IMG/VR virus record: IMGVR_UViG_3300029389_000414
Length of the DNA: 64,000 nt
Reading direction: 5' to 3' (one strand)
DNA from: a virus
Positions within the stretch are counted from its first letter, which is position 1, and each line of letters starts with the position of its first letter. Shown piece by piece: positions 9,024 to 45,823 of the stretch. Position numbers and translations under genes: made by a program. The notes beneath the pieces were generated by a model that did no database searches, had not been told where the DNA came from, and saw only the letters and a program-made list of their open reading frames with translations.

Positions 9024-9194
9024 TTGGTTATCCTCCTAATTGTTTGTTGATACGAACATAACAGTATTTTTTAATCCTCCGTTCTTCTGAAATTTTATGT
9101 TCTATAGATAGAATGATTTTTCTGTTAGAAAATAAAAAAAGAAGTCCCCGTATTGGAGACTCCTTAATTACCGTAATGTTTAGAAATATTCTTT
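9024..9194 (-). repeat. intergenic cassette copy 1 (terminator, promoter, conserved 5'UTR; inverted repeats aacataacagta / taccgtaatgtt)
   Basis: Carries the shared elements gttatcctcc, cagtatttt, ttctgaaattttatgttctatagatagaatg, aaaataaaaaaagaagtcccc...ggagactcc and ccgtaatgtt. Confidence 0.7.
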
Positions 9195-9662
9195 TTATGT
9201 TGTATCATTGATAAGTGCAAGAATTTTGTCCAGGCATGTTTTGTAAGCATCTGGGGCTGAATCCAGATGTTGTTTTGCCTGATTGACTGCATCCAGCAAT
9301 TCCACTTTTACGGCAGGACTGATCAGTCTTTCATTTTTAAGAGCTTCTTTCACAGCATACTCTTCATTCGACCATTCCTGAAAGCTGTTGTTGTTTATTT
9401 CGTATTTTCCTTCGTAATCGCCGTAGTAAGTAAAAGATCCATCAAGCTGGATATTCTCTTTCTGGCAGGATTCACATAAGGCTTGGAGATTATCTTCAAT
9501 ATCTCCATGAATATGGGATACTTCTATTTCTGCCATGCCTTTAAATTCTGTGACATCAGCGTTTTCTTCCTTTTCAATAAGTTTTTGGGATACCAAAAGT
9601 TCAAGAAATTTTGGTACACTTTCTTCTTTGATTTCAAATGAACCGTCATTCACTAAATACAT
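9195..9662 (-). CDS. hypothetical protein
   Basis: 155-aa ORF directly downstream of cassette copy 1. Confidence 0.5.
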   Translation of the reverse strand: MYLVNDGSFEIKEESVPKFLELLVSQKLIEKEENADVTEFKGMAEIEVSHIHGDIEDNLQALCESCQKENIQLDGSFTYYGDYEGKYEINNNSFQEWSNEEYAVKEALKNERLISPAVKVELLDAVNQAKQHLDSAPDAYKTCLDKILALINDTT

Positions 9663-9677
9663 AAGCTATCCTCCTTG

Positions 9678-10025
9678 TTAATCATCACAATTGTTTAATG
9701 CAGCATAAGCATTTTCCATTGCTGTTCTTAGTAATGCATTTGCATATTCTTCTTTGCATTCTTCTGCTATTTCTGGCTGCAAAAAACAATATAATTTATT
9801 TATATCGTAATCTCCAAAGACATAGTCCTCCAATATAAGCCGATATGTCGTTCTCAAGGCATGACGGATTAAAGAGCCATATGTACTGTCGTGTCTTTCT
9901 TTTGCAAGCGCTATACAAGCATATTTAAAGGCATCCGTTAATAAAGATTCTGCATATAAATCCTCGGGTTTGAATTCACTTGATAAACAATTCTTTAAAA
10001 TATTTGCTGCTTCTTTATTTGTCAT
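9678..10025 (-). CDS. hypothetical protein
   Basis: Start set at the ATG after a ggaggataac RBS. Confidence 0.5.
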   Translation of the reverse strand: MTNKEAANILKNCLSSEFKPEDLYAESLLTDAFKYACIALAKERHDSTYGSLIRHALRTTYRLILEDYVFGDYDINKLYCFLQPEIAEECKEEYANALLRTAMENAYAALNNCDD

Positions 10026-10047
10026 TGTTATCCTCCTTATAAACTGG

Positions 10048-10266
10048 TTAATCATCACTATTGCTTAATACTGCGCAAGCATTTTCAAAGAGTTCTGATA
10101 GTTCCCGAATTCCATCGTCAGTCAGAAGTGAGTGAGTCACATTCAGCTGCGTTTCATCTTCTTCATGCTCTCGGTTCAAAAATCCGACATTCACACAGGA
10201 ACATCTTTTGATCTCAGATACAGAACTGGTGTATATTTTGTTTTTCATCATTTCAGCAATTGTCAT
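10048..10266 (-). CDS. hypothetical small protein
   Basis: 72-aa ORF in the operon-like minus-strand run. Confidence 0.4.
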   Translation of the reverse strand: MTIAEMMKNKIYTSSVSEIKRCSCVNVGFLNREHEEDETQLNVTHSLLTDDGIRELSELFENACAVLSNSDD

Positions 10267-10469
10267 CTGTTTTCCTCCTCGTCTGGGTCATCCCAAAGAT
10301 ATTCATTTCTAACTTTTTCTTCAATATCTAAAACACTAAGCCATCCAAAACAACAATCACAGACACGGATCGTCTTCTGGCGTCTTTTACCATAATATTT
10401 TCCTGTAAATTTAATCTTAGTGTTTGGGACCTGTAAATCACTTGCCCCGCAAATCCAGCAGCGTATCAT
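10263..10469 (-). CDS. small zinc-ribbon protein
   Basis: 68 aa with CWICG...CDCCFGW; 4-nt overlap with the downstream gene. Confidence 0.45.
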   Translation of the reverse strand: MIRCWICGASDLQVPNTKIKFTGKYYGKRRQKTIRVCDCCFGWLSVLDIEEKVRNEYLWDDPDEEENR

Positions 10470-10480
10470 CCTGCCACCTC

Positions 10481-10762
10481 CTAATATTCAGATGGGAACA
10501 GGATAGTCGTGACAGAACGGTCCCATTCCGTAATGATCCAGATTTTTCCGTGACTGGTCTCATAAGCTGAAAGGATTCTGTCCCCGGATTCTAATGCGCG
10601 GTCATTTTCTGCCTTGTCTTCTTCACAGACGCTTCCCCAGTCGCCAGATACATGGCGATTCAGGGACTCCATGACTTTCATGTAAAATTCTTTTTCATCC
10701 ATAAATCTCGCAATATCTTGTGTCATGACAACTTTTCCAAGGTTTAATTTGTTTTTACTCAT
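10481..10762 (-). CDS. hypothetical protein, family often seen on plasmids/ICEs
   Basis: ggaggataacaaa RBS. Motifs GDWG...IWIITEWDRSVTTILFPSEY. Confidence 0.5.
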   Translation of the reverse strand: MSKNKLNLGKVVMTQDIARFMDEKEFYMKVMESLNRHVSGDWGSVCEEDKAENDRALESGDRILSAYETSHGKIWIITEWDRSVTTILFPSEY

Positions 10763-10777
10763 TTTGTTATCCTCCAA

Positions 10778-10920
10778 ATGATTATTTGAACATTACAGTA
10801 TAAAATTTAACCTCCATTTCTTCTGTAAATTATGTTCTATAGATAGAATGCATTTTCATTTGAAAAATAAAAAAGAAAGCCCCTTAAAGAGACTTTCTTA
10901 AATACTGTAATGTTACAATT
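10778..10920 (-). repeat. intergenic cassette copy 2
   Basis: Near-identical module: gaacattacagtat, cctccatttcttctgtaaattatgttctatagatagaatg, aaaataaaaaagaaagcccc ttaaagag actttc hairpin, tactgtaatgtt. Confidence 0.75.
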
Positions 10921-11817
10921 TTACTTTTTCTGCTGCAGCTTTATAAATTTGTCTGCCGGTTCAAAGATATTTTCTTTTCGATCATAGTGGTACACGTTGT
11001 TCGTCAGGCGATCAGCCATTTCGACACGGTTCGTACTTACTTCCTGGACTAAGGTATGCCTTCTTGGTGATCGGTGAGAGCCTTTGGATTCTTGTACATG
11101 ACATTCCGAAGGATCCGGAACAAATCCAAGTTCCTTTTTGTATGCCTTTACATACCGGTATCCCACATCCCAGTGTCTGGTAGCAGACGGAACAGATTTA
11201 CCATTCCTGAGCCTTATCAATACAGTTTCCCTGCCCTTGTCGCTGATATCAGGCTCGGAGCTGGATAAGTATGCAATCAGGGAAAAGATCAGATGATTAT
11301 AGGACCGCTCCCCGGTATATCCTCCTTCGAAATCTATCAGGGAATCTTCCAGGGTCTTTCCTTCGGAATAATCCATGCTTGCCTTCATAAATACGATCTG
11401 TACTGGATTCACACGTACCAGTGCGATCATTGCAAGTACCTGGTCTTTTGGATTATTATGGATGTATACCCCGACAATTTCCTTGTCATCTACCGTCATA
11501 TGACTTTCCTCAATATCCATGTAGAATGTATCGTAAGGCAAATGCAGGTCCTGCATCCGAAAATCTAATTCTGTAGCAGCATTGAGTTCGGAAGCAAGCA
11601 GGGGATGGAAACGGTATGCCTGTCTGGTCTTTAAGTATTCTGTAAAAACAGCAACACCCAGGACCACCTCGTTAAGGTCTTCTTCGGTACGATATGTATC
11701 ACGCTCGGCAAAATAAGGACGGATTTCTTCATAGCGGATCTGTTTCGGGCATTTTACATCTTCCAGCGCTTCTCTGGCCAGTCTGGATGCCATGTATTCT
11801 TCTTTGTGTTTTTTCAT
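10921..11817 (-). CDS. hypothetical protein
   Basis: Start at the ATG after ggaggataacctg (MKKHKEEY...). Confidence 0.5.
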   Translation of the reverse strand: MKKHKEEYMASRLAREALEDVKCPKQIRYEEIRPYFAERDTYRTEEDLNEVVLGVAVFTEYLKTRQAYRFHPLLASELNAATELDFRMQDLHLPYDTFYMDIEESHMTVDDKEIVGVYIHNNPKDQVLAMIALVRVNPVQIVFMKASMDYSEGKTLEDSLIDFEGGYTGERSYNHLIFSLIAYLSSSEPDISDKGRETVLIRLRNGKSVPSATRHWDVGYRYVKAYKKELGFVPDPSECHVQESKGSHRSPRRHTLVQEVSTNRVEMADRLTNNVYHYDRKENIFEPADKFIKLQQKK

Positions 11818-11847
11818 CAGGTTATCCTCCAAAAATAGATTGAACAT

Positions 11848-12004
11848 TGCAGTATTTTCTTTTTCCTCCGTTTCTTCTGCATATTATGTTCTAACTATAG
11901 TGTGATTTTTGGAATAAAAAACAAAAAAAAGAAAGCCTCAATTAAGAGACTTTCTAAAAACTGTAATGTGCAGTATTTGTTTTTTGATCCTACCCCGCAG
12001 CCAA
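11848..12004 (-). repeat. intergenic cassette copy 3
   Basis: Same module with variant inverted repeats (aacattgcagta / aactgtaatgtg) and hairpin gaaagcctc...gagactttc. Confidence 0.7.
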
Positions 12005-12913
12005 TTACTGTTTTACACCCTGAAGAAATGATTCAATCTCAGTAAACACGATATTCGAATATGGCTGGTCATGAAGTACATCGTGAGCTGCGTCTTTTAT
12101 ACAGCAGATCTTTGTATCTTTATTGTTTTTATGATAGGCTTTATAGACCTTAGCGACTCCTTTACCGAATCCAGCAACCGGATCATTTTCTCCATACAAG
12201 AAGAGCGTAGGTATTATGCTGTTATTTGGTTTTTTCATTTTTTTGTTGCAGTAAGACATTCCCCTTAAGAATTCGCAGAAGAATCCCGGAGTAAAATCAG
12301 TTTTTACAAGCCAGTCCTCTTCATATTTTATACGCGATTTTTCGTCCGTAAACAGCCAGTAATTGTCAGGCATCCCTTTGATATTGTAATTATCAAAAGC
12401 TAATTTCCTGATCTTATCATTGGAGCGTTCCATTGTATTGCGATATTTGCCCCTCAAATATTTTTCCAAAATCTTCAGAACGGGCGTTGGCTGATGACCT
12501 GTCCCTATTAGGATTTCTGCCGTATATCCATTCAGATTTTCTAACGAGCGCACGACAAATGAGCCAAGTGAAAATCCCAAAAGATAAACTGGTTTTCCCG
12601 GATATAACTCTTCGGATTTCTGTCGGATTAATTTTACATCAGATACAGCATCAAACCAGTTTTTCAGATAAATGTCTGGTTCTATCTTTTTTGTATTGCT
12701 GGAAAGGCCATGTCCGATCATATCATTCCCTATGACGGCATACCCCTGCCTCGTAAAATATTCTCCAAATTCTTCATATCGGTCCATATGTTCTGTCATG
12801 CCATGTGCAATCTGAATGACCCCTGTTACTTCCACATCAGATGGTGTGAAATTTACCACATGGAGGATTGTATTGGAGTCTGTAGATTCACATGAAAAAC
12901 ATTTTTTAATCAT
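12005..12913 (-). CDS. alpha/beta hydrolase (lysophospholipase/monoglyceride lipase-like)
   Basis: Oxyanion-region HGMTEHMDRY, nucleophile elbow GFSLGS, and a C-terminal D...H. Confidence 0.7.
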   Translation of the reverse strand: MIKKCFSCESTDSNTILHVVNFTPSDVEVTGVIQIAHGMTEHMDRYEEFGEYFTRQGYAVIGNDMIGHGLSSNTKKIEPDIYLKNWFDAVSDVKLIRQKSEELYPGKPVYLLGFSLGSFVVRSLENLNGYTAEILIGTGHQPTPVLKILEKYLRGKYRNTMERSNDKIRKLAFDNYNIKGMPDNYWLFTDEKSRIKYEEDWLVKTDFTPGFFCEFLRGMSYCNKKMKKPNNSIIPTLFLYGENDPVAGFGKGVAKVYKAYHKNNKDTKICCIKDAAHDVLHDQPYSNIVFTEIESFLQGVKQ

Positions 12914-12957
12914 TTGTAAATGTCCTATCCTTTCTTTGTAATTATCTTTAGTCTAAT

Positions 12958-13410
12958 TTAGCCCCATTCAACTAACACTTTTCCAGTGTCCTCATCTGTT
13001 GCAGCAAAGTCATATTCTACTTCGCCGCATTCTTCATTGCAGAAATCCGACATTTCTGTGAAAAATGGATTCTCCCCATTTTCTAACATGCGGATTTCCT
13101 CTTGAGTTGCCTCAAATTCCTGAGTGACACTGATGGATTTCTCCAAAGTCACACTAACTGATGTTGTAAATTCGACTTGTTCTTTTTGGAATTCCACGTA
13201 AAAGTCAACTTCATTATTACAGCCTTCCACGTCACAGATTTCACTGGAAGCAGGACTTCTGCTAACACTGGCTTCTTCCAATTCCTTTACATATTTTGCA
13301 CGGCATCCCGGACAGATTGCAGCCCATGGTCTTTCAGAGTTATCTATCGATTTGTGGAAATCATCGAATCTAATTTTTTCTCCGGATGTTGTTTTGTAAA
13401 TCATTTTCAT
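12958..13410 (-). CDS. hypothetical acidic Cys-containing protein
   Basis: ggaggataacaat RBS; 150 aa. Confidence 0.5.
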   Translation of the reverse strand: MKMIYKTTSGEKIRFDDFHKSIDNSERPWAAICPGCRAKYVKELEEASVSRSPASSEICDVEGCNNEVDFYVEFQKEQVEFTTSVSVTLEKSISVTQEFEATQEEIRMLENGENPFFTEMSDFCNEECGEVEYDFAATDEDTGKVLVEWG

Positions 13411-13446
13411 ATTGTTATCCTCCTAATTTTGAAATCTACGTTTCAT

Positions 13447-13596
13447 CTATATAATTTCTACATCGTCCAATTTGTTTCCATTTTTTTTGACTAACCATAA
13501 ATCCTTTGTAAGTCTGCGAATAGGCTGATACCCGTTGTATTCAAGATAATCCTTTCCCTCTTCTGTATTCTCACACCATGTTTTTACGATCTTCAT
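13447..13596 (-). CDS. small hypothetical protein (49 aa)
   Basis: ATG after a taggagaataaaatt RBS; 50 codons in frame. Below the ORF-track cutoff. Confidence 0.3.
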   Translation of the reverse strand: MKIVKTWCENTEEGKDYLEYNGYQPIRRLTKDLWLVKKNGNKLDDVEII

Positions 13597-13701
13597 AATT
13601 TTATTCTCCTAATATAAGTTGGTAATAATATAATTCATCTTCATCAATTCCATTTGATTCTGTTCCTCTTTCGTTTTCTCTTCTTCACCCTCTTTTCTTT
13701 C

Positions 13702-14925
13702 TTAAATGAAAATTATCTTTTCCGGTATTACGGCAGAAACTTGATATCCTTCATTTTTCAATTGTTCCATGACTACTTCTGCAAGAATATCTGTATTCCA
13801 TTCACAGGCCTTGAACTGATAGTCACAGATAGCAATTTCTATTTCATCAATTTTTTCATCTGGCAGCTCAGGACCTGTAAGCTTCAAAATCTGGCAGCCT
13901 TCGTTCCTGTCACACCTGTCACGAAAAGAAATATAGAATTCCCTTACATCTGAATGCTCTGTTTTTGCGGATTCCGTCGCATACCATTTCTTTTCAAATT
14001 CCTGTATTTTACCCAGAAATTCCGGATCTACATCATAGGCCGATTTTGCATTTTCAATGCAGTCCTGCAAGACTTTTGCTTCCTGCAGCACTTTTAACCT
14101 GCCATCAATAACTTCAAGCTTGTAAGAAGTAAAGGTTCGGTAGTTGGCGATCAGGAAATTGTTTCCATCACGATTTACGATATGATCATCATTATCGAAA
14201 AGTTCCAGGTAATCTAACACCATACCTTCATAAGTATCTGTTTTCGGTCCTGTTTTAGAAATTGTCCGTTTTGATTGAAAGTGGGAACACATATTCGATT
14301 CATCATAACTGAGATGATGATTTACTACATAATCATTTAAAGCAAAAAACATATCTCGTTCCAGATTTTTCTGCCAATTGCTGTCATGCCAATTGATCTG
14401 AATCTCATAATCTATATAATCATCAGATACCCAGTCGTCTTCCTGCTCGCCCTGCTTGATGCAGACAAAATATCCAAGAATCGGACGTTTGTCATTTTCT
14501 GTAACAGAACGGCCGCATTGCTCATATGTGGTAATATTAAGTTCTACATCCACATATCCGACTTCCAGCACTGCTACACCGCGGTATGGATCCCCGTTTT
14601 CACAAGTTGCAGACATATAATCTATCTGCAGATCATCGATCAGGGACGGTAGTTCATTGAGCGTAAATGAATAATCTTTCCGTTTTCTTGCCTGATCAAA
14701 AGTAAGCCCGTAAAGTCTGTGTTCCTCTTTCCAACTTTCAAACCTGTCCATAAGTCCAATCCTGCGGATTGTTGACAAGTCCGCGGCTGACATCATGAAG
14801 CTTTTCTGCTCGCAGTAATTGCGGACCATTTCAAATTTTTCTTGACAGAATAATTCATCATCTTCGATCCCTGCTGAAAGTCTGTTGATCATTTCCATTA
14901 AAGACATTTGTTTTGTTGTACTCAT
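13702..14925 (-). CDS. hypothetical 407-aa protein
   Basis: ggaggataacaat RBS directly after a cassette. Confidence 0.55.
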   Translation of the reverse strand: MSTTKQMSLMEMINRLSAGIEDDELFCQEKFEMVRNYCEQKSFMMSAADLSTIRRIGLMDRFESWKEEHRLYGLTFDQARKRKDYSFTLNELPSLIDDLQIDYMSATCENGDPYRGVAVLEVGYVDVELNITTYEQCGRSVTENDKRPILGYFVCIKQGEQEDDWVSDDYIDYEIQINWHDSNWQKNLERDMFFALNDYVVNHHLSYDESNMCSHFQSKRTISKTGPKTDTYEGMVLDYLELFDNDDHIVNRDGNNFLIANYRTFTSYKLEVIDGRLKVLQEAKVLQDCIENAKSAYDVDPEFLGKIQEFEKKWYATESAKTEHSDVREFYISFRDRCDRNEGCQILKLTGPELPDEKIDEIEIAICDYQFKACEWNTDILAEVVMEQLKNEGYQVSAVIPEKIIFI

Positions 14926-15060
14926 ATTGTTATCCTCCAGATTATTATTTGAACATTACAGTATTTTGTTTCTCCTCCATTTCTTCTGTAAATTATGTTC
15001 TATTGATAGAGTGCTTTTTCAGGTGGAAAATAAAAAAAGGTATTTATTAAGAGCAAACAT
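14926..15060 (-). repeat. intergenic cassette copy 4
   Basis: gttatcctccagattattatttgaacattacagtattttg...ttctgtaaattatgttctattgatagagtg...aaaataaaaaaag. Confidence 0.7.
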
Positions 15061-15258
15061 TGAATGCAGTAAGAAATACAATAAAAAGAAGAGGACGATT
15101 AATCCCTCTTCCCTTTTTAACATATAAATATTATCTGTTATGTGTATTTTCTGCCGATGTTGTGATTTCTTTTGATGATTAGCCACCGCACACTCATGAC
15201 TTCAGTCGTGCGAGGTTTCACAAATTGTTCAACTTCTCTTCTTATAAATGTATCCTCC

Positions 15259-16173
15259 TTAATTAACTTTTGAGGCTACACTGTCGTAAGATTTTTTTAA
15301 ACTGTTTTTTAATTCAATTGGATTAATCAGCCACCAGTCCTTCGATGGATCATTTAGTTCCAGACGTTCTAAATAGTCCGCATAGGAATTTGTAAGAGAT
15401 CTGTTTGCTTGTAGTTCAGTCATGATTTTACTATAATTCTTTGTTATAACAGCAAAATTTTTTAAATGATTCTGATTTTTTAAGATCCACTCCCGTAGTG
15501 CGAACATTGTTTTCTTTTCAGACGAAAATCCAGCTAAAATTGTCTTTCTTACATAAGGAAGTTGTATACAAACATTCCATTTATTAAATTCTTTTGAAAC
15601 AATGAATTTCACGGAAAGATTATTTGAAAAATTCAAATATTTAATGTAAGCTGGTTTATCTGGGCGATGCCAGACATCCGTTTCGTGCCGATCGCTTAAA
15701 AATAATCCATAATGTTCTGGAATTCGATAATCCTCCTCGGTAAGCCTGCCTCCACTATTAAATCTTTTTTCAAACATTTTATATATCTGATTCTCTTTTT
15801 TATCCTGAAAATTTAAAAGTTCAGGTGAATACAAATAATGGATCTTTAACTGTTCCCAATCCCGGAAAACAGGAATCCAGTTTTTTGCCGTATCTTTCCG
15901 AATAGTACAAAGCTTACTGCCATCTTTATAAAGAATCATTTTTTCGTTTTTAATAATAAAAGTGTAGTCCGTATTAAAAAATCCTGGCAAAGCTGTATAT
16001 TCGTATATTGGATATTTTTCTCTTAATTCTTTCATAATTGTATCTATGAGTCCGTTTTGGAAAATATCCAAAAGTGTCACCACATGTAAATTATGGGTGA
16101 TGTCTTCTACTTCACAATAAACAAACTCAGTAATAACCTTTTTAGATGCTTCTTTCATTATATAAAAATTCAT
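15259..16173 (-). CDS. hypothetical 304-aa protein
   Basis: ggaggataacat RBS. Confidence 0.55.
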   Translation of the reverse strand: MNFYIMKEASKKVITEFVYCEVEDITHNLHVVTLLDIFQNGLIDTIMKELREKYPIYEYTALPGFFNTDYTFIIKNEKMILYKDGSKLCTIRKDTAKNWIPVFRDWEQLKIHYLYSPELLNFQDKKENQIYKMFEKRFNSGGRLTEEDYRIPEHYGLFLSDRHETDVWHRPDKPAYIKYLNFSNNLSVKFIVSKEFNKWNVCIQLPYVRKTILAGFSSEKKTMFALREWILKNQNHLKNFAVITKNYSKIMTELQANRSLTNSYADYLERLELNDPSKDWWLINPIELKNSLKKSYDSVASKVN

Positions 16174-16468
16174 ATGTTATCCTCCTAATAAAATGTATTG
16201 ACATAACAGATGTATAATTGTATCCTTCTTTCATATCATTTATAATTGACATCATCGATTCCTCCAGATTATTTTTCAATCCGGATTCGTTGATCATACA
16301 GATTAAATTGTACCCTTCCTGATTTTTACATAAAGCATCGTACAGTGTATTGTAAAAACGTTCCTGCACAGCCTCCGCATTTTTCCTTCCTGAAGTTCCA
16401 TTCGAATCACTGCTGAAACGTGCAGTTTTGCATGGTCCGCTCTTGGAATAAATGGAAATGTGACTCAA
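16142..16468 (-). CDS. possible small ORF (start uncertain)
   Basis: TTG start with no RBS. An internal RBS-preceded ATG would give only a 38-aa product. Confidence 0.25.
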   Translation of the reverse strand: MSHISIYSKSGPCKTARFSSDSNGTSGRKNAEAVQERFYNTLYDALCKNQEGYNLICMINESGLKNNLEESMMSIINDMKEGYNYTSVMSIHFIRRITYEFLYNERSI

Positions 16469-16531
16469 TTTTAGCTTCTATCTGAAATTTTCTTGTGTCT
16501 CGTCCATCCATGGTTATTCTCCTTTTTTTGA

Positions 16532-16903
16532 CTAAATTTTTCTTTGCATCAGATCTATCCCCAATGCAACACTTGCGACTACTCTTTTATCCCATTCCGC
16601 AAAATCGAGAAAAGATTCTGGATCGCTGCCATCTTCTTTATAATACAGAGTCGCTTCAACGGACACTGGGCGTCCTTCATTATACATGATAACGGCGTAT
16701 TCATTATTTGAATCATAGACTGGCAGGTTTTCACGTTTACAGATTTCCACCAATTTTGCTGTGTCGTAGTAACGGTTAAATGACGGAAGTTCACAGATTA
16801 GTTGCGCTTTTACATCTGTTACTCTGCGTCCATCAATCTTAATGTCATAAAAATGATAAAACTTAAATACTACATTTATTCTATCTGGTCTTTTATGTCT
16901 CAT
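16532..16903 (-). CDS. hypothetical protein
   Basis: ggaggataact RBS. Confidence 0.5.
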   Translation of the reverse strand: MRHKRPDRINVVFKFYHFYDIKIDGRRVTDVKAQLICELPSFNRYYDTAKLVEICKRENLPVYDSNNEYAVIMYNEGRPVSVEATLYYKEDGSDPESFLDFAEWDKRVVASVALGIDLMQRKI

Positions 16904-17023
16904 AGTTATCCTCCTAATTGTATTGACATAACAGATATTTAATTGATTCCTCCTTTCTTCTGTAAATTTTTATGCCTATTAATAGAATGAAATTTCAACT
17001 GAAAAATAAAAAAGCCCCGGTAT
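16904..17023 (-). repeat. intergenic cassette copy 5 (shortened)
   Basis: gttatcctcctaattgtattgacataacagat...ttctgtaaatttttatgcctattaatagaatg...aaaataaaaaagccccgg...ccaaggctc hairpin. Confidence 0.65.
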
Positions 17024-17488
17024 TTACACCAAGGCTCTTCCCGCAGTTGCGGATAATAAGGTACACAACATAACTCCCCAAATAATCATTAATATCCCAA
17101 CGATCAGGAATGATATTTTTAGCACATTGTCAATCGTTGGACTGGCTGCATATGTACTAGGATTAAGTGTTGGAATGTATAAATAAGTCGGATCCAGTGG
17201 GTCCACATAAATCGTAATCTGCTTGCCAAGAGCTGTCCGACAATCGCCACACACATTGGAACGTTGCCGGTACAATTTTCCTGCATAATCATATTCCAGA
17301 ACCGGATATCTGTAATTGTAATAATCTCCATCCATGATACCTTGCGACATTTGGAGATCTACGATTGTAGCAGTTACCGGAGCTTTACATTTCTTCTTCC
17401 GTTTAGAAAGATCAGAAGACACAACTGCGGAAACTGCAAGGAAGATTCCGTCTGCAATAATAAATATAAGTCCATAATAATTGCTCAT
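17024..17488 (-). CDS. membrane protein (N- and C-terminal TM helices, Cys-rich middle)
   Basis: taagggg RBS before MSNYYGLIFII; hydrophobic termini. Confidence 0.5.
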   Translation of the reverse strand: MSNYYGLIFIIADGIFLAVSAVVSSDLSKRKKKCKAPVTATIVDLQMSQGIMDGDYYNYRYPVLEYDYAGKLYRQRSNVCGDCRTALGKQITIYVDPLDPTYLYIPTLNPSTYAASPTIDNVLKISFLIVGILMIIWGVMLCTLLSATAGRALV

Positions 17489-17699
17489 AATATACCCCTT
17501 AATATTCAATTGCTTTCAAAAATTCCTGTGCATCTTCCATGTTAACTTCCGGAATATCTACATAAATCAGTGTGTTATCGATTTGGCAGAGATGCATATA
17601 TTGTCCGTTTGTTGATAAAGAATACGTCTGGTAATTTTTACCAGATTTTTCTCCTTCCTTTGCAGAACTTCCCTTTGTAGATTCGAAAGACTCCTTATC

Positions 17700-17837
17700 C
17701 TCCTTGTTATATTTAGAACATACAGTATTTTGTTATCCTCCATTCTTCTGTGTAAATTGTTCTATTATTAGAATAGAGAATTTTTCATGTCATAAAAAAA
17801 GAAGCCTCTGTAGAGACCTCTTTTGTTTACTGTAATG
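17700..17837 (-). repeat. intergenic cassette copy 6 (5'UTR deletion variant)
   Basis: acatacagtattttgttatcctccattcttctgtgtaaattgttctattattagaatagag...aaaaaaagaagcctctgtagagacctctttt...tactgtaatgtt. Confidence 0.65.
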
Positions 17838-18149
17838 TTAGAAATATTCGCTCAACTCTTCTCGAATCACAATAGCTTTGATTTCTTTGATTTCTTCCTG
17901 CGTGATATATTCATCCGCATTTTCGAGTTCTTCTATATAAGCATATTCAAGATCCCAGTAAATTGCCACGATCCATTTCTTTTCATTAATATGATATTCG
18001 AATTGGATAAAATAGGGTTCTCCAGCCGAGTCTTCAAACTCTCCCTCTCCAATCTGCATTGTAAATGTAACAGAATCAACCCAGGTGATATAAAAGGGTA
18101 TATACCTGCCTCGAAATATCAGTTGTGCAAAATCAGTTAAAGTTACCAT
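17838..18149 (-). CDS. hypothetical acidic protein
   Basis: ggaggataacact RBS. Confidence 0.5.
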   Translation of the reverse strand: MVTLTDFAQLIFRGRYIPFYITWVDSVTFTMQIGEGEFEDSAGEPYFIQFEYHINEKKWIVAIYWDLEYAYIEELENADEYITQEEIKEIKAIVIREELSEYF

Positions 18150-18181
18150 AGTGTTATCCTCCATTATTCATAACCTTCACA

Positions 18182-18853
18182 TTAATTTTCTGATAAAATA
18201 CTTTGCATATGTTCAATACCGTCTTCCATATAATTCCTTAAAATTTCATTATCAGGAATCACATCTTTCAAAGCGATATATGATTCAACAGATAAAGCAT
18301 TTTCCAACCGGGTCATAAATTTCTCATCTGTTTCCGCAATCTCTGCCAATGCCGAAGTGAGAAGATCATAATGGACATCATCAGTATAATCAAAAAGAAT
18401 GCTCATTTCACAATAGTCGTGAATTTTTATTGCCTGCCCCAGATATTTCTTCTGAGCATCAGTCGCTTGGTATTTTATAAATTTTCTTGTATATGTATCC
18501 TGGAAAAAATCATCTGTCCGCATCCAGCCGACCTTATTGTAATTCTCTTTGCAAAATTCATAGGAAACTGCCAAATACTGCTCATCATTGCAATCAAGGG
18601 AATCATTATCCAGGATCTGCCCCTCAGTGCCAAGGGAAGCGCTCCATAATTCGTGATTTTCGACAGATTGTTCTACTAATTCTACTGCTTCAGCAGGCGT
18701 AACATCGTATACGCATATTGCTCCATCATTGTTATATGTAAAAGCGTATTTGTTCAAAAATGGATTGTATAAATCTCCTTCAGACGTAATAAAATGATAC
18801 ATTGCATTCCAGTCTGAAAAAGTTAAATAATTGAATCGATCTTTTGTTGTCAT
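18182..18853 (-). CDS. hypothetical protein
   Basis: ggaggataacaa RBS; 223 aa. Confidence 0.55.
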   Translation of the reverse strand: MTTKDRFNYLTFSDWNAMYHFITSEGDLYNPFLNKYAFTYNNDGAICVYDVTPAEAVELVEQSVENHELWSASLGTEGQILDNDSLDCNDEQYLAVSYEFCKENYNKVGWMRTDDFFQDTYTRKFIKYQATDAQKKYLGQAIKIHDYCEMSILFDYTDDVHYDLLTSALAEIAETDEKFMTRLENALSVESYIALKDVIPDNEILRNYMEDGIEHMQSILSEN

Positions 18854-19008
18854 TTGTTATCCTCCAGATTATTATTTGAACATTACAGTTTTTTGTTGAT
18901 CCTCCATTTCTTCTGTAAAATTATGTTCTACTGATAGAGTGACTTTTGAGATGAAAAATAAAAAAAAGAAGCCTCATACGAGACTTCTTTTCCATGTTGT
19001 AAATGAAT
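18854..19008 (-). repeat. intergenic cassette copy 7
   Basis: gttatcctccagattattatttgaacattacagtttttt...cctccatttcttctgtaaaattatgttctactgatagagtg...aaaataaaaaaaagaagcctcatacgagacttc. Confidence 0.75.
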
Positions 19009-19683: not shown

Positions 19684-19695
19684 TTTTAATCCCCC

Positions 19696-19917: not shown

Positions 19918-19936
19918 ATGGTTATCCTCCCTTTTA

Positions 19937-20170: not shown

Positions 20171-20185
20171 ATGGTTATCCTCCTT

Positions 20186-20707: not shown

Positions 20708-20904
20708 GATTTTTCTCCTTTGTAAAAATAATCTTTGTGGTCAGTATCCTGCAGTATTTTGACTTTCAGATACCAGGCAAGGCTTTCAAAATCTGTATAC
20801 TCATAGGGACTGATCGGTTTCCCGTTCCAGCTTGCAAAAAATACTCTTGCATCATTTGCCGGAACAAAATTACAATCTCCAGTCCGATAATTCCTATCTT
20901 TCAT
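20704..20904 (-). CDS. hypothetical small protein
   Basis: caggaggc RBS; 4-nt overlaps with both neighbours. Confidence 0.45.
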   Translation of the reverse strand: MKDRNYRTGDCNFVPANDARVFFASWNGKPISPYEYTDFESLAWYLKVKILQDTDHKDYFYKGEKS

Positions 20905-21706
20905 GAGAAGCCTCCTGTCTGCATTTCCGCATGATGTCCCAGTTATGCTCCATCATCCAGCCAACGCCTTTGGAGTGGTTTTCATCGAACCATTCCCAGA
21001 TATCTTCCCGTTCCATTCCTGCTTTCCAAAGAGCGAAGTCCTCAGAAAGAAGCATGCGTCCTTCCGGATCTTCATCGAACGGAATATCGGTCAGCATCGC
21101 CCAAAGCTTTTCGGTCTGTGCATCTGTGACCATCTGGTAAAATTCTTCATCCATGTTCAGCATGAATGTCCGAAATGATGCGGCCTTTTTCAAGTCCTTT
21201 ACATCCGGCGCACCAACATATTTCGTAAGAGGCAGGGAATCAAGGAAATTTTGGAAATTGCTTTGGAAGGTGACGGGCTTTAACATGCAGCCGTATAAGG
21301 CCTCCATTTCTGTTCCGTTCAGATCCTTTGTAGATTCAATGACCGGATTTTTTACCAGATAATCCCGTCTCATAACACTGATCGGTGGCTTTAACATCCA
21401 GCATTCTCCAGTCAGTTCCACATCCGGGACCTCGTTTTTTCTTGGACGCCGGATTGATTTCCAGTCCTGTTCAAGGTAATATGCATGAATGATAACTGGA
21501 ACCTTGTATTTTTGCATAATCTTGATGATTTTCCCCGTTCCCGGCATTGCCATTAATGCACGCTGTACTGTATCAGCGACACAAATTCTAGGGGTACTGT
21601 CATCTTCGCTTATATTTGGTCCGGTAACTCTTGATTTTGGAATCCTTGGAATCAGTGAACACGGTTCCAGAATATCCCAGCTGCAGTGAATATATTTTTG
21701 ACTCAT
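20894..21706 (-). CDS. hypothetical protein
   Basis: Start at the ATG after ttaaggaggaccacc (MSQKYIHCSWD...). Confidence 0.5.
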   Translation of the reverse strand: MSQKYIHCSWDILEPCSLIPRIPKSRVTGPNISEDDSTPRICVADTVQRALMAMPGTGKIIKIMQKYKVPVIIHAYYLEQDWKSIRRPRKNEVPDVELTGECWMLKPPISVMRRDYLVKNPVIESTKDLNGTEMEALYGCMLKPVTFQSNFQNFLDSLPLTKYVGAPDVKDLKKAASFRTFMLNMDEEFYQMVTDAQTEKLWAMLTDIPFDEDPEGRMLLSEDFALWKAGMEREDIWEWFDENHSKGVGWMMEHNWDIMRKCRQEASHER

Positions 21707-21717
21707 GGTGGTCCTCC

Positions 21718-22092
21718 TTAATAATCGATCTGAGTGGTATAGTCCGGATCCTGCATAAGTTCTTTTGCTTTCTGCTGTACCCATGACATGATGCTGAGTG
21801 ATTCAATCCGTTCTTTCGTGATCACATAGCCGATTCCGTCTACATATTTGAGCTTTTCGTGTCCGGATTCCATGACGATGATACAGTCATCATCCGGGAT
21901 AATATCCTGAAGTTTAAAGATATCATCCATGTCAACATCAGAATAGGAACCGAATCCATAAGTGTGGTCTGAACCGGTGAACAGCTCAATTCCAAAATTC
22001 TTTTTCTGGATCTGTTCAAAGATCTGATGAAATTTTTCCTCATCTGTTACATGAAAATAGTTACTTCTTGCGGTTGCTTCGTAATTTGCCAT
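21718..22092 (-). CDS. hypothetical protein
   Basis: ggaggataaccatt RBS. Confidence 0.5.
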   Translation of the reverse strand: MANYEATARSNYFHVTDEEKFHQIFEQIQKKNFGIELFTGSDHTYGFGSYSDVDMDDIFKLQDIIPDDDCIIVMESGHEKLKYVDGIGYVITKERIESLSIMSWVQQKAKELMQDPDYTTQIDY

Positions 22093-22113
22093 AATGGTTA
22101 TCCTCCTTATTCT

Positions 22114-22545
22114 TTACATTGCAAAACGCACGATTCCTAATCCTTCCGGGAGCTGTTTGAATTCACCCTTACCTCCATGGAAGATCTTCCGTGCTTCAAT
22201 TTTTGTGTATCCGATTGCAGTCCAGTCACTGCAGAAATCATCCCAGTCTTTATAATAGGCTGTGATATTTCCGAGGTATGGATAGCGTTTCAGGTGTCTT
22301 CCGATCGAATCCCGGACAGAATCTGTGACTTTGATCCATTTCTGGAGATACTGGATACTGTCCTTTGATATCGGTCTTATAACAAAATCTTTTGTATCCT
22401 GGCAGTAAGCAACTGCCTGGTTCAAAGTCAGACGATCTTCCCAGCATTTTCCATCCGGAGTCCAGACAGAATATGCTTCTGAGAGCGAATCTGCTTTTTT
22501 GTCATATTTGATACGTAACCGGTTGATCATCATTACATTTTTCAT
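22114..22545 (-). CDS. hypothetical protein
   Basis: aaagggg RBS. Confidence 0.45.
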   Translation of the reverse strand: MKNVMMINRLRIKYDKKADSLSEAYSVWTPDGKCWEDRLTLNQAVAYCQDTKDFVIRPISKDSIQYLQKWIKVTDSVRDSIGRHLKRYPYLGNITAYYKDWDDFCSDWTAIGYTKIEARKIFHGGKGEFKQLPEGLGIVRFAM

Positions 22546-22910
22546 TACTCTTGCCCCTTTCTTTTAAATTCAAAGAAAAGTCCATGTTCATAATGTACCG
22601 TCATCCAATAGTCCTTTAGATATCTCGGATCTGGGGAATGATTTGACCACTTGATCTGATGCAGGATCGTACTCCAATAATAAAAGTGCAGACCCTTATC
22701 TCCATATTCCTGATAAGTATCATCCACAATATAGAGTCCCTGATCCTCGGAATATTTCTGAAAGAATTCCAGTTTTTCTACAAATGCTGAAATATCTTCG
22801 ATGATCTGTCCGGAATACAGGTTGTCAAGTCCGACAACCGCGCTGAGTGCCGGGAATGTCCGGTTCTCATGTTCGGTAAGTTTTGTTGTTTTGTAAGCAT
22901 ATTTCTTCAT
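22545..22910 (-). CDS. hypothetical protein
   Basis: ggaggataact RBS. Confidence 0.5.
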   Translation of the reverse strand: MKKYAYKTTKLTEHENRTFPALSAVVGLDNLYSGQIIEDISAFVEKLEFFQKYSEDQGLYIVDDTYQEYGDKGLHFYYWSTILHQIKWSNHSPDPRYLKDYWMTVHYEHGLFFEFKRKGQE

Positions 22911-22922
22911 AGTTATCCTCCT

Positions 22923-23192
22923 CTATGCAGATAGGATCTGCTCTTTTTCTTTTTGTTCTGCCTTTCCCCGGCGTTCCAATTCATTTGTTAAAGCGAGGGC
23001 CAGGTCTTTTGCATAATCACATGGATACTTTTTGTAGAAGAGATCTATCATGCCAACGGCAGTTTCCCAATAGCCTTCTGTACGTTCGCCATTTTGGTCG
23101 CCATTCAACAAGAGTTTCATAATCTTGTAATAGTCTCCGAACATATTGAAATAAAAAGATCCCTTTTCAAATGTTTCTTTTTTCATGGTCAT
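22923..23192 (-). CDS. hypothetical small protein
   Basis: aaaaaggaggatgacc RBS. Confidence 0.45.
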   Translation of the reverse strand: MTMKKETFEKGSFYFNMFGDYYKIMKLLLNGDQNGERTEGYWETAVGMIDLFYKKYPCDYAKDLALALTNELERRGKAEQKEKEQILSA

Positions 23193-23523
23193 CCTCCTTT
23201 TTTCCGGATAAGATGCCGGAAACTTTCATCTTCAAGACATTCCAGCTTTTCAAAGTAAAAGCGGAGTCCATGGAATCCCTCTTCCAGTCCTCAGCCTCTT
23301 CCTTAGTCTCTTCCATATCCAATGGCAATTTCCAAAGCTTTCCATACCATACCGATCCTGTCATGACCGCAAGAGCAGACAGGGAGCAGACCAGGCATTT
23401 TAGGAAACTGATGTCATTGTTCTCACAACCGCCGAAAATACCGGCAAGGAAGAGAAATGATAGGGAGAATGAAGTAAGGCTTATCCCTTGTTTGTGTGTT
23501 GTTACAAAATTTTTCACATTCAT
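23167..23523 (-). CDS. small membrane protein
   Basis: aaatggagg RBS; hydrophobic core. Confidence 0.45.
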   Translation of the reverse strand: MNVKNFVTTHKQGISLTSFSLSFLFLAGIFGGCENNDISFLKCLVCSLSALAVMTGSVWYGKLWKLPLDMEETKEEAEDWKRDSMDSAFTLKSWNVLKMKVSGILSGKKEDDHEKRNI

Positions 23524-23640
23524 TTACTTTGCCTCCATTTCTTCTGTGAATGATTGTTCTATTAATAGAATGGGAAATGGAATAAGAAATAAAAAAAGCC
23601 CTGAATGGGCTTGCATACTTAGAATACAAAAAGACGCCCG
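23524..23640 (-). repeat. intergenic cassette copy 8
   Basis: cctccatttcttctgtgaatgattgttctattaatagaatgggaaatgg...aaataaaaaaagccctgaatgggctt. Confidence 0.65.
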
Positions 23641-34986: not shown

Positions 34987-34987
34987 C

Positions 34988-45760: not shown

Positions 45761-45823
45761 ATCTTTTAACACACTGTGAGCAAGGAATCCCCCACTTCTA
45801 CAAGTGGTGGGATGAATTGCGTA

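What the first reader, a model, noticed from the sequence alone, without database searches (positions are those of the whole stretch)
9024..23640. About 15 kb of small unrelated genes separated by a highly similar promoter-terminator-5'UTR module with inverted-repeat borders
At least eight near-identical ~120-170-bp intergenic modules occur at 9024, 10778, 11848, 14926, 16904, 17700, 18854 and 23524, with remnants at 44540 and 45549. Each module contains a rho-independent terminator whose stem varies compensatorily, a promoter-like block (ttctgtaaattatgttctatagatagaatg), and a conserved 5'UTR ending in the RBS ggaggataac. The module is bracketed by the inverted 12-mers AACATTACAGTA and TACTGTAATGTT, so every gene is flanked by mutually complementary sequences. 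This resembles the promoter-early stem-loop (PeSL) repeats that mobilise small ORFs in T4-like hyperplastic regions, or single-strand promoters of conjugative leading regions. It could also create long-range RNA stems that serve as RNase III processing sites. The copy at 45549 has lost its gene and keeps only a 3-codon stub, consistent with cassette gain and loss.
Basis: seen in the sequence. Interest (0 to 1): 0.8.

Follow-up and report, generated by a model that had tools for sequence, protein, structure and literature searches.

The report
Repeated terminator-promoter cassettes that shuffle genes
A mobile element from a human-gut Lachnospiraceae bacterium separates its variable cargo genes with copies of one ~150-bp "stop, restart, stabilise" signal, and related elements carry different genes between the same signals, much like the regulatory cassettes that shuffle genes in T4-like phages.

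Summary
The repeats are real, but the genes and modules lie on the minus strand. Nine modules occur in window 5.6-23.6 kb, and one more at 45.6 kb.

Read on the minus strand, each module has this order:
- in about a third of copies, the 12-mer AACATTACAGTA;
- an intrinsic terminator;
- a T-rich tract;
- the conserved core CAYWCTAT-N3-TAGAAC, which does not match the sigma-70 consensus;
- a leader hairpin with a GGAGG in its loop;
- a second ribosome-binding site, GGAGGATAAC, and the start codon.

The downstream 12-mer pairs mainly with the end of the core, not with the upstream 12-mer, and this local helix shows compensatory changes.

The same module family occurs in 80+ metagenome stretches, mostly human gut, and one Lachnospiraceae MAG, several copies per contig and always co-oriented.

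Relatives share the modules but carry different genes between them. One insertion/deletion joins inside a 19-nt repeat of two terminators. Stub genes and a stranded 3' gene remnant mark past exchanges.

Best reading: PeSL-like and EGeRS-like regulatory cassettes in a probable integrative element. They insulate and drive each cargo unit, and they act as recombination points.

A single-strand promoter, a MITE and an invertible promoter are not supported. The polymerase and sigma factor, the transcription start and any regulation are unknown.

The parts
23524..23640 (-). Module m23524, short form. Terminator 23612-23596, core CATTCTATTAATAGAAC 23572-23556; the first GGAGG is the real RBS for the gene starting at 23523. 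It heads an 11-gene operon (19009-23523).
18854..18995 (-). Module m18854, long form. Terminator 18993-18962, core 18941-18925, leader hairpin about 18928-18878, downstream 12-mer 18890-18879, RBS GGAGGATAAC and ATG at 18853.
   Evidence: L056 stays collinear with the window up to 18878 and then diverges.
17700..17839 (-). Module m17700. Upstream 12-mer 17839-17828 overlaps the stop codon of gene 17838-18164. Terminator about 17824-17797, core TATTCTAATAATAGAAC 17775-17759. The downstream 12-mer has a 1-nt deletion, and no clean start codon follows the second RBS.
16904..17041 (-). Module m16904. Terminator 17041-17008, core CATTCTATTAATAGGCA 16989-16973. The leader hairpin carries matched changes (GGCAU/AUGUC). 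No upstream 12-mer.
14926..15116 (-). Module m14926. Terminator 15116-15083, T-tract, core 15013-14997, leader hairpin, downstream 12-mer 14963-14952, RBS and ATG at 14925.
11848..11966 (-). Module m11848. Upstream 12-mer variant CACATTACAGTT just 5' of the terminator, terminator 11955-11930, core CACACTATAGTTAGAAC 11904-11888. Leader helix with the compensatory pair UGCAG/CUGCA; downstream 12-mer 11854-11843.
   Evidence: The orthologous module plus gene is L056 15650-16382.
10778..10914 (-). Module m10778, the most complete copy. Upstream 12-mer 10914-10903, terminator 10899-10873, core 10850-10834, leader hairpin 10837-10788 (-9.5 kcal/mol), downstream 12-mer 10800-10789, RBS and ATG at 10777.
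9024..9180 (-). Module m9024. Upstream 12-mer 9180-9169, terminator 9165-9139, core 9115-9099, downstream 12-mer 9066-9055. It is preceded by GAATATTTCTAA, which at m17700 is the coding 3' end of an unrelated gene.
5618..5700 (-). Terminator about 5700-5673, core 5648-5632, leader hairpin with compensatory arms (GAACG/CGUUC, UAUGA/UCAUA). It heads the PARP-like gene 4400-5617 and the Macro-domain gene 3845-4381.
45600..45770 (-). Module m45620 with the stub ATGAAGAAGTAA (45611-45600). A canonical sigma-A-type promoter TTGACG-N17-TACAAT follows (about 45600-45572), then an Rpn-like PDDEXK_2 gene (44616-45548).
44538..44617 (-). Partial module. Upstream 12-mer AACATTACAGGA 44617-44606, terminator 44602-44568, and the second-class core CCATACTATATATG (about 44556-44540) upstream of the beta'-like gene cluster.
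44584..45714 (-). Present/absent cassette: promoter, stub, PDDEXK_2 gene and part of a terminator. Missing in L054 (about 98-99% identical flanks), present in L053. The junction lies within 19 identical bases (TGGGGCTTTCTTTTTTTTG) shared by two terminators.
12005..18853 (-). Variable block of four module-headed units, about 10 genes. In relative L056 it is replaced by four unrelated genes in two units between the same two flanking modules.
57424..57440 (-). Core motif alone (CATACTATTAATAGAAC), upstream of the 2177-aa adhesin gene. The same kind of site occurs at 3618-3634, 28687-28704, 40204-40221, 47920-47936 and 49148-49165.

Best explanation
The repeats are composite regulatory cassettes of about 110-170 bp. 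They mark the boundaries between units in the variable cargo region of a large integrative mobile element of a human-gut Lachnospiraceae bacterium.

Read on the minus strand, each cassette does four things:
1. It ends the upstream unit with an intrinsic terminator. The stems use G-U pairs, so they fold well only in the sense RNA.
2. It restarts transcription at a conserved core, CAYWCTAT-N3-TAGAAC, placed a fixed distance after the T-tract. This is not a sigma-70/sigma-A consensus promoter, so I infer a specialised or regulated form of RNA polymerase.
3. It gives the new mRNA a 5' hairpin that starts at the GAAC of the core. The loop holds a GGAGG with no start codon after it. I infer a 5' stabiliser of the STAB-SD / 5'-stem-loop type.
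4. It supplies a second, consensus ribosome-binding site (GGAGGATAAC) for the first gene.

Because the same sequence stands at every unit boundary, recombination between copies deletes, inserts and replaces whole units. The cargo region therefore evolves by cassette shuffling.

Shown: the anatomy, the family-wide conservation, the helix covariation, cassette turnover in relatives, and one junction inside a module.
Inferred: promoter activity, the start site, mRNA stabilisation, and the recombination mechanism.
For: Anatomy and significance:
- (12 core sites, all on the minus strand, against 1.5 expected).
- Terminators: and (82 unique copies; mean -12.9 kcal/mol sense against -8.7 antisense; 68 of 82 more stable in the sense orientation).
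- No sigma-70-type match at the core, although a canonical TTGACG-N17-TACAAT exists inside inserted cassettes of the same element.

Leader helix:
- On an alignment not fitted to any structure, 90.4% of cells pair, against 23-48% when the partner is slid.
- 5 of 11 pairs show changes on both sides.
- 15 compensatory cells against 3.1 +/- 1.5 in shuffles (0 of 500 reach the observed value).
- RNAalifold finds the inner helix on its own.
- The hairpin is the minimum-free-energy fold in 6 of 8 window leaders; one of the other two was truncated by my coordinate error.
- G-U 20 against A-C 8.

Family:
- 83 metagenome stretches, mostly human gut, with up to 4 matches per stretch and 20 stretches with 2-4 matches, all co-oriented.
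- 131 instances, 84 unique.
- A Lachnospiraceae MAG.

Turnover:
- L056 is collinear with the window up to m18854 and again from m11848, with unrelated genes between.
- Unit maps differ across loci.
- Gene clusters followed by a module have more than one successor in 29 of 40 cases, against 45 of 110 otherwise (Fisher p = 0.0008).
- The L054 insertion/deletion junction lies in 19 identical bases shared by two terminators.
- Stubs and a stranded 3' gene remnant.

Precedents: PeSLs (PMC2839356, PMC4122927); EGeRS regulons (PMC8708921, PMC6294495); STAB-SD (PMC4113751).
Against: - No transcript data. Promoter activity, the start site and terminator efficiency are inferred from position and conservation only.
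- The core fits no consensus that I could assign. The best sigma-A-like reading, TTTTTA-N17-CATWCT, scores only 3/6 plus 3-4/6.
- The leader hairpin is weak (-7 to -10 kcal/mol; z-scores -0.2 to -2.3).
- The sequences are related by descent, so the shuffle control overstates significance.
- Synteny breaks are enriched at modules but are not confined to them (43% of no-module boundaries also differ, partly from noise in ORF calling).
- Only one junction was resolved to the base.
- The type of element (conjugative or phage-like) and the direction of transfer are unknown. No relaxase or type IV secretion genes lie in the 64 kb.
Confidence: 0.7

Rival explanations
1. The conserved sequences act mainly on DNA, as operators of an element-encoded repressor or activator. 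They would form a regulon that fires briefly after the element enters a new cell (zygotic induction), as with Reg576 and EGeRS2 on plasmid p576. The two 12-mers, which flank the promoter in inverted orientation, would be binding sites. This is compatible with the best explanation and could add to it.
For: - One core is shared by at least 16 transcription units across the window and across relatives.
- The 12-mer motif sits at fixed positions on one or both sides of the promoter. In EGeRS2 the operators likewise lie on one or both sides (PMC8708921 section 3.7; PMC6294495).
- HTH proteins are encoded in the element (41841-43013; 40819-41220).
- Homologues of the neighbouring 518-aa gene lie among SSB, RadC, AcrVA2-like and methyltransferase genes typical of establishment regions. 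An AcrVA2-like Pfam hit is on record for the orthologue of gene 10921-11847.
Against: - Compensatory changes between the core end and the downstream 12-mer, with G-U in excess over A-C, point to base pairing in the sense RNA rather than to two protein half-sites.
- The palindrome in the core is weak: variation in the left half is not mirrored in the right (one search list).
- No repressor was identified. The Reg576 operator TTATCCCnnTTATCCC is absent.
- Conjugative transfer of this element has not been shown.
Confidence: 0.3
2. The inverted 12-mers pair in RNA. [quoted passage not shown]
For: - A 12-13-bp perfect complement closes the whole module in m10778 when folded.
- The upstream 12-mer is far more frequent than chance, at a fixed position 2-6 nt before the terminator.
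- Most of its internal variants are A-to-G or C-to-U changes, which keep wobble pairing.
Against: - It is present in only about 30% of modules and absent from the distant relative L060.
- No compensatory double changes were found, either within a module or within a transcription unit.
- The bias towards transitions is not significant given the base composition (my count).
- The downstream 12-mer has a nearer partner that does covary.
- A 12-bp stem is short for RNase III (my knowledge).
Confidence: 0.12
3. Each module is itself a small non-autonomous transposable element (a MITE, like Correia elements) with 12-bp terminal inverted repeats that carries a promoter and a terminator into intergenic sites.
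For: Inverted 12-13-mers lie near both ends of some copies. There are many copies per element.
Against: - No target-site duplication: 0 of 26 modules with both arms have matching flanks of 3 bases or more.
- Conservation runs well past the downstream arm (CAAAT...GGAGGATAAC), so the repeats are not the ends of the unit.
- Two thirds of copies lack the upstream arm.
- All copies are co-oriented with the downstream gene.
Confidence: 0.05
4. The modules are single-strand promoters (Frpo/ssi type) that work only while the transferred strand is single-stranded after conjugation.
For: The position, in a region whose relatives carry establishment-type genes. There are inverted repeats in the module.
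Against: - Folded as ssDNA, both strands give only a 13-bp closing stem, the terminator hairpin and small hairpins. No extended duplex rebuilds -35 and -10 boxes.
- Most modules lack the closing stem.
- Neither oriT nor the transferred strand is known.
Confidence: 0.04
5. The segment between the inverted 12-mers is an invertible promoter (an inverton) that switches each unit on and off by site-specific inversion.
For: Inverted repeats of 12-13 bp flank a promoter-bearing segment of about 100 bp. A serine recombinase is encoded at 1-1671.
Against: - All 131 instances point towards the downstream gene.
- All 20 stretches with 2-4 matches have every copy on the same strand.
- Two thirds of modules lack one arm.
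Confidence: 0.03

Closest known systems
PeSL (promoter-early stem-loop) cassettes in the hyperplastic regions of T4-like phages (Arbiol 2010, PMC2839356; Comeau 2014, PMC4122927)
   Same: Small intergenic composites of a terminator hairpin, an AT-rich tract, a promoter and a Shine-Dalgarno sequence. They are repeated many times in the most variable part of the genome, mostly in front of genes of unknown function. Insertions, deletions and replacements between relatives lie between copies.
   Different: The host is a Firmicute integrative element, not a T4-like phage. The promoter does not match the sigma-70 consensus that defines PeSLs. The modules carry an added structured leader with two Shine-Dalgarno sequences. 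Units are often operons of up to 11 genes. Mini-circles have not been shown.
EGeRS2 and EGeRS1 establishment-gene regulatory sequences of p576 and pLS20-family plasmids (PMC6294495, PMC8708921)
   Same: A conserved regulatory sequence repeated upstream of several clustered operons in a Firmicute mobile element. The operons have highly variable, mostly uncharacterised gene content and a mosaic distribution among relatives. The authors propose them as anti-defence/establishment islands.
   Different: No sequence similarity. The Reg576 operator is absent. EGeRS2 has a strong sigma-A promoter, and EGeRS1 is 400-750 bp and GC-rich with no promoter; this module is about 150 bp and AT-rich with a non-consensus core. 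Conjugative transfer, a repressor and transient expression are not shown here.
5' mRNA stabilisers of Firmicutes: STAB-SD of cry3A (PMC4113751) and 5'-terminal stem-loops (my knowledge)
   Same: A GGAGG in the 5' UTR that is not followed by a start codon, upstream of the real ribosome-binding site. A hairpin starts at about the predicted 5' end.
   Different: Here the Shine-Dalgarno-like sequence sits in the loop of the hairpin, and the pair is part of a repeated mobile cassette. Stabilisation is untested and the 5' end is only predicted.
Frpo/ssi single-strand promoters of the F and ColIb-P9 leading regions (as described in PMC8708921 and PMC11541004)
   Same: Repeated regulatory elements with inverted repeats in front of operons that may serve establishment.
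   Different: The ssDNA fold does not rebuild a promoter duplex. The elements are much shorter, and most copies lack the outer stem.
Integron gene cassettes with attC sites
   Same: Arrays of unrelated small genes separated by a repeated element with internal inverted repeats; gene content varies between relatives.
   Different: Each unit has its own promoter and terminator. No attC-like structure and no IntI-type tyrosine integrase were seen in the window, which has only a large serine recombinase. The one resolved junction is a homologous crossover in a terminator.

Membership tests
PeSL cassettes (T4-like phages) | Intergenic composite of a stable stem-loop terminator and a promoter, with an AT-rich tract and a Shine-Dalgarno sequence, repeated many times | tested here: met
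PeSL cassettes (T4-like phages) | The promoter matches the sigma-70 consensus (a phage early promoter) | tested here: not met
   The consensus scan finds no site at the core. The best manual fit is 3/6 plus 3-4/6.
PeSL cassettes (T4-like phages) | Located in the hyperplastic regions of a T4-like myovirus genome | tested here: not met
   No match in the phage collection. The window encodes a serine recombinase, sortase, pilin and adhesin, and no virion genes were detected.
PeSL cassettes (T4-like phages) | Insertions, deletions and replacements between close relatives are bounded by the cassettes | tested here: met
PeSL cassettes (T4-like phages) | Recombination between nearby copies yields mini-circles | not testable with these tools
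   Needs PCR or long reads on a culture or a metagenome.
EGeRS2 regulon (p576 type) | A conserved sequence upstream of several clustered operons with variable content | tested here: met
EGeRS2 regulon (p576 type) | Dual heptamer operator TTATCCCnnTTATCCC next to a strong sigma-A promoter | tested here: not met
   0 matches with up to 2 mismatches. No sigma-A consensus at the core.
EGeRS2 regulon (p576 type) | An autoregulated ribbon-helix-helix repressor encoded in one of the operons; transient expression after transfer | not tested
   No repressor was identified. Most small proteins have no Pfam match. Expression needs an experiment.
Frpo/ssi single-strand promoter | The ssDNA folds into a long hairpin that rebuilds -35 and -10 boxes in the duplex | tested here: not met
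Frpo/ssi single-strand promoter | Lies in the leading region, with the transferred strand serving as template | not testable with these tools
   No oriT or relaxase lies in the window.
MITE (for example the Correia element) | Terminal inverted repeats at the ends of the repeated unit | tested here: not met
   Conservation extends beyond the downstream repeat. The upstream repeat is missing from about 70% of copies.
MITE (for example the Correia element) | Target-site duplication | tested here: not met
   0 of 26 for repeats of 3 bases or more.
STAB-SD / 5' stabiliser | A Shine-Dalgarno-like sequence in the 5' UTR that does not start translation | tested here: met
   In 70 of 81 unique modules no open frame follows the first GGAGG.
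STAB-SD / 5' stabiliser | 30S binding blocks RNase J1 and lengthens mRNA half-life | not testable with these tools
   Needs an experiment.
Known RNA families (Rfam 15) | A match to any curated covariance model | tested here: not met
   No hit in 8900-24000 even at E <= 1.

The most novel reading that the evidence does not exclude
The modules may be the promoters of an element-specific transcription programme, not of ordinary sigma-A transcription. In this reading, the non-consensus core CAYWCTAT-N3-TAGAAC is read by an alternative or redirected RNA polymerase holoenzyme. The element's free-standing copy of the beta' clamp helices (43027-44280), the site where sigma factors dock, takes part by capturing or redirecting a sigma factor. 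The whole set of ORFan units, including an AcrVA2-like gene, is then switched on together when the element enters a new cell. The Rpn-like PDDEXK_2 nuclease genes found directly behind stub-bearing modules may actively promote cassette exchange. If so, the module would be a ready marker for mining hundreds of unknown anti-defence genes from gut metagenomes.
Probability: 0.15. Interest if true: 0.8.

Novelty: new variant of a known kind. Interest (0 to 1): 0.55.

Why it matters
1. It extends a principle known from T4-like phages (PeSLs) and Bacillus plasmids (EGeRS): a repeated regulatory cassette both drives and shuffles variable genes. Here it appears in a widespread family of mobile elements of human-gut Lachnospiraceae, where nothing of this kind appears to have been described in the literature I could search.
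2. The module is a short, specific sequence tag. One pattern scan pulled out 83 metagenome stretches, and the loci analysed encode more than 300 protein clusters, most with no known domain. If the region is an establishment or anti-defence island, the tag is a practical way to list candidate anti-defence and defence genes.
3. The core does not look like a sigma-A promoter, although the same element uses canonical sigma-A promoters elsewhere. That makes the question of which polymerase form reads it directly testable.
4. [quoted passage not shown]

Tried and rejected
- Megablast of 9-24 kb, 1-25 kb and 25-50 kb against the phage and plasmid collections: no match.
- Exact-protein look-ups for two window proteins: none on record.
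- First pattern scan of the species genomes: nothing.
- Viral contig scan: 52 single, apparently chance hits, not used.
- PHROGs on ten cassette proteins: no hits.
- Pfam on the small proteins: almost nothing. The AcrVA2-like hit recorded for the orthologue in L056 could not be reproduced with the local Pfam copy.
- PDB sequence search with the same protein: none.
- Rfam: no family at the modules.
- I tried to read the core as a sigma-A, ECF, sigma-H, sigma-54 or TcdR-type promoter, by eye. None fits. The CATWCTAT part resembles the CATA-type -10 elements of sporulation sigma factors (my knowledge), but no matching -35 is conserved. I make no claim here.
- A short upstream ORF in the leader (ATG TTC AAA TAA) is not conserved among copies, so I rejected it.
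- The palindrome TTCTA-N4-TAGAA as an operator: the left half varies without any mirrored change, so the case is weak.
- Covariation between the upstream and downstream 12-mers, both within a module and within a transcription unit: no informative double changes.
- One leader (m11848) was truncated by my coordinate error and should be ignored.

Full report
**Orientation and context**

GC and AT skew are negative across the whole window, and nearly all long ORFs lie on the minus strand.

Pfam places the region in a large integrative mobile element of a Firmicute:
- a large serine recombinase at 1-1671;
- a PARP-like protein plus a Macro-domain pair;
- a 2177-aa thioester/T-Q adhesin, a sortase and a pilin;
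- two IscB-type RRXRR-HNH genes and a TnpB;
- RNase H, HNH, HD, PP2C and NERD proteins.

No virion genes, relaxase or type IV secretion genes were detected in the 64 kb. There is no close match in the phage or plasmid collections.

**The observation**

Direct-repeat search, a degenerate motif search and a MAFFT alignment show one composite module at all eight listed sites. It also occurs at 45620 and, outside the stated range, at 5570-5700. An nhmmer profile finds nine copies in window 1-27000.

On the minus strand the order is:
1. an optional AACATTACAGTA, called (i) here;
2. a G+C-rich hairpin and T-run;
3. TTTTTTATTTTTCA, a few bases, then an A-rich tract;
4. the core CAYWCTAT-N3-TAGAAC;
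5. ATAAT-N-T-N-CAGAAGAAA-N-GGAGG;
6. about 10 nt, then ATACTGTAATGTTCAAAT, called (iii) here;
7. about 8 nt, then GGAGGATAAC-N3-4-ATG.

The core occurs 12 times, all on the minus strand, against 1.5 expected. The 12-mer occurs 10 times against 0.27 expected.

The copies are 60-86% identical, so they are similar rather than near-identical. They head operons of 1 to 11 genes. The proteins between modules show no paralogy.

A looser form of the core (CATACTAT..ATAAGA) precedes genes elsewhere in the window, including the adhesin, PP2C, HD and RNase H genes. It also precedes cas9 in two relatives. The signal is therefore element-wide.

**Terminators**

The consensus scan finds minus-strand terminator-like sites at the modules. 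Over 82 unique family members, the segment before the T-run folds at a mean of -12.9 kcal/mol in the sense orientation and -8.7 in the antisense. In 68 of 82 the sense fold is the more stable. This is what G-U pairs in an RNA-level structure would give. There are 59 distinct terminator sequences, so the hairpin is kept while its sequence drifts.

**Promoter status**

No sigma-70-type site is found at the core. The best manual fit is TTTTTA-N17-CATWCT.

Yet the core is the only conserved block between a terminator and a ribosome-binding site. In the short form of the module only about 20 nt separate it from the RBS (m23524; the cas9 promoter in L053 and L054). A canonical TTGACG-N17-TACAAT does exist in the same element, inside inserted cassettes. 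The host's ordinary promoter type is therefore different.

I infer a promoter read by a specialised or regulated polymerase form, with the start near the G/A of TAGAAC. This is inference, not demonstration.

**The 12-mers**

The downstream 12-mer (iii) is complementary to the upstream 12-mer (i). It is also complementary, across a small bulge, to GAACAT..TACAG at the end of the core, called (ii) here.

I tested the (ii)-(iii) pairing on a structure-agnostic alignment of 52 distinct leaders from the window, the relatives and the metagenome loci (A2):
- 90.4% of cells pair, against 23-48% when the partner is slid.
- 5 of 11 pairs have changes on both sides.
- 15 compensatory cells occur, against 3.1 +/- 1.5 in shuffles (0 of 500 reach the observed value).
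- RNAalifold recovers the inner helix on its own.
- Examples: UGCAG/CUGCA (m11848), CACAG/CUGUG (L060), GGAUA/UAUCC (L056), GAACG/CGUUC (m5570).
- G-U outnumbers A-C by 20 to 8 (binomial p = 0.018, with non-independent data).
- The hairpin is the minimum-free-energy fold in 6 of 8 window leaders, but it is weak (-7 to -10 kcal/mol).

Its loop carries the first GGAGG. In 70 of 81 unique modules no open frame follows that GGAGG. This is the arrangement of a STAB-SD-type 5' stabiliser (PMC4113751) combined with a 5'-terminal stem-loop.

The upstream 12-mer (i) is real but found in a minority of copies:
- 18 of 60 unique long modules have at least 8 nt of complementarity, against 0.5 expected.
- About 30 of 84 match with at most 2 mismatches, always 2-6 nt before the terminator.
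- No informative covariation with (iii) was found.

**Relatives**

Homologues of the beta'-like protein and of the 518-aa protein just upstream of the region led to related contigs. One pattern scan gave a Lachnospiraceae MAG with at least four modules in 8 kb. A metagenome scan gave 83 stretches, mostly from human gut. Twenty of them had 2-4 matches, always on one strand. In total there were 131 instances, 84 of them unique.

**Cassette turnover**

- L056 is about 82% identical to the window in shared genes. It is collinear from 25998 to 18878, ending just after (iii) of m18854, and again from 11959 onwards (m11848 plus its gene). Between these two modules it has four unrelated genes where the window has about ten.
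- Unit maps of about 30 loci show the same units in different combinations, for example '...8 | 25 26 |' against '...8 | 160 161 162 |' against '...8 | 7 89 37 62 86 |'.
- Gene clusters that are followed by a module have more than one successor in 29 of 40 cases, against 45 of 110 otherwise (p = 0.0008).
- L054 (about 98-99% identical) lacks window 45714-44584. The junction lies within 19 identical bases shared by two terminators.
- Modules with 2-3-codon stubs occur in several loci.
- m9024 is preceded by GAATATTTCTAA, which at m17700 is the coding 3' end of an unrelated gene.

**What the cargo is**

Most cassette proteins have no Pfam or PHROG match. Among 125 recurrent clusters the few hits include PARP, HicB, RadC, DUF4314, DUF1653, a RecD2-like helicase, HD, and AAA_15/AAA_23 ATPases.

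The orthologue of gene 10921-11847 carries a precomputed AcrVA2-like hit. I could not reproduce this with the local Pfam copy.

More distant homologues of the 518-aa gene sit among SSB, RadC, AcrVA2-like, GmrSD_N, Fic/RelB and methyltransferase genes. This resembles the establishment/anti-defence islands of conjugative elements (PMC8708921, PMC11541004). It is suggestive only.

**Rivals**

- Single-strand promoter. As ssDNA, both strands form only a 13-bp closing stem, the terminator hairpin and small hairpins. This does not fit.
- MITE. There is no target duplication (0 of 26), and conservation runs past the downstream repeat.
- Inverton. No copy in the opposite orientation was seen among the 131 instances.
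- Operator/regulon. This reading remains open and is compatible with the main explanation. The p576 operator itself is absent.
- RNase III site or 5'-3' pairing through (i)-(iii). Untested and weakly supported.

**Comparison with what is known**

The modules work like PeSLs (PMC2839356, PMC4122927). They are not members of that family: the promoter is not a sigma-70 consensus and the genome is not that of a T4-like phage.

They resemble the EGeRS regulons of p576 and pLS20 plasmids (PMC6294495, PMC8708921) in logic, but not in sequence or architecture.

No Rfam family matches, and my literature searches found no description of this module.

I rate it a new variant of a known kind. It is of moderate interest, with higher interest if the promoter proves to depend on element-specific transcription factors.

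Noticed in passing
window 43027-44280 (-), with 41841-43013 (-): A 417-aa protein is a free-standing homologue of the N-terminal clamp of RNA polymerase beta'. Residues 169-249 align to E. coli beta' 237-314 (the lid and clamp helices, where sigma docks), and residues 76-142 align to the zipper region. It has no catalytic domain. It is followed by a 390-aa protein with an N-terminal HTH. Only 9 homologue clusters were found among 5.8 billion proteins, all from metagenomes. It could be a sigma-factor decoy or adaptor.
   Followed up: partly
window 41423-41860; L053 13567-17900; L054 8083-12830: A CRISPR-like array of seven ~36-nt repeats (…GGGGTACTACAAATTTACATGGTTCTCAAAC) spaced 65-67 nt apart, with no cas gene beside it in the window. 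In the close relatives L053 and L054 a cas9 gene, preceded by the same core promoter motif, lies between the HTH gene and the array. The window's element has apparently lost cas9.
   Followed up: partly
window 40295-41145 (-): A cluster of seven tRNA genes (Ser-TGA, Ser-GCT, Arg-ACG, Glu-TTC, Tyr-GTA, Phe-GAA, Leu-TAA) inside the mobile element. Two ORFs that I had listed there, including an 'HTH' ORF at 40819-41220, overlap these genes and may be spurious.
   Followed up: no
window 44616-45548 (-); L056 14639-15589; L053 8438-9355; L113 530-1450: Rpn/YhgA-like PDDEXK_2 'transposase' genes (48% identical between the window and L056) sit directly behind modules that carry a 2-3-codon stub. Each has its own canonical TTGACG-N17-TACAAT promoter. 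L134 has the same stub and promoter frame in front of a different gene. They may be cassettes that target modules, or nucleases that promote cassette exchange.
   Followed up: partly
window 45770-47377 and 33331-35005; 57982-58342: An IscB gene (45824-47125) with its HEARO/omega RNA (47148-47377) is an insertion absent from L053 and L054. A second IscB (33331-34758) has no Rfam hit upstream. However, 34646-35005 is 99% identical to 57982-58342, which looks like a solo copy of that element's end. TnpB lies at 36035-37249. A further 72-bp repeat links 37215-37286 and 48222-48293 (88%).
   Followed up: no
window 4400-5617 and 3845-4381 (-): A gene with a PARP-type ADP-ribosyltransferase catalytic domain is followed by a Macro-domain gene, both under module m5570. 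A second PARP-like cluster occurs in related loci. This could be a toxin/antidote pair or a host-modifying pair.
   Followed up: no
L068 ~5770, L089 ~3900, L103 ~2510: Short-form modules in other gut contigs drive genes that begin MKISSI..NFKG, typical of AAA_15/OLD-type ATPases of defence systems. The module family therefore also heads defence-like cargo, not only anti-defence candidates.
   Followed up: no
window 15040-15083 (-): Between the terminator at 15116-15083 and the T-tract of m14926 lies TTACTGCATTCAATGTTTG. This resembles the downstream 12-mer in direct (not inverted) orientation, and may be the scar of a deleted unit.
   Followed up: no
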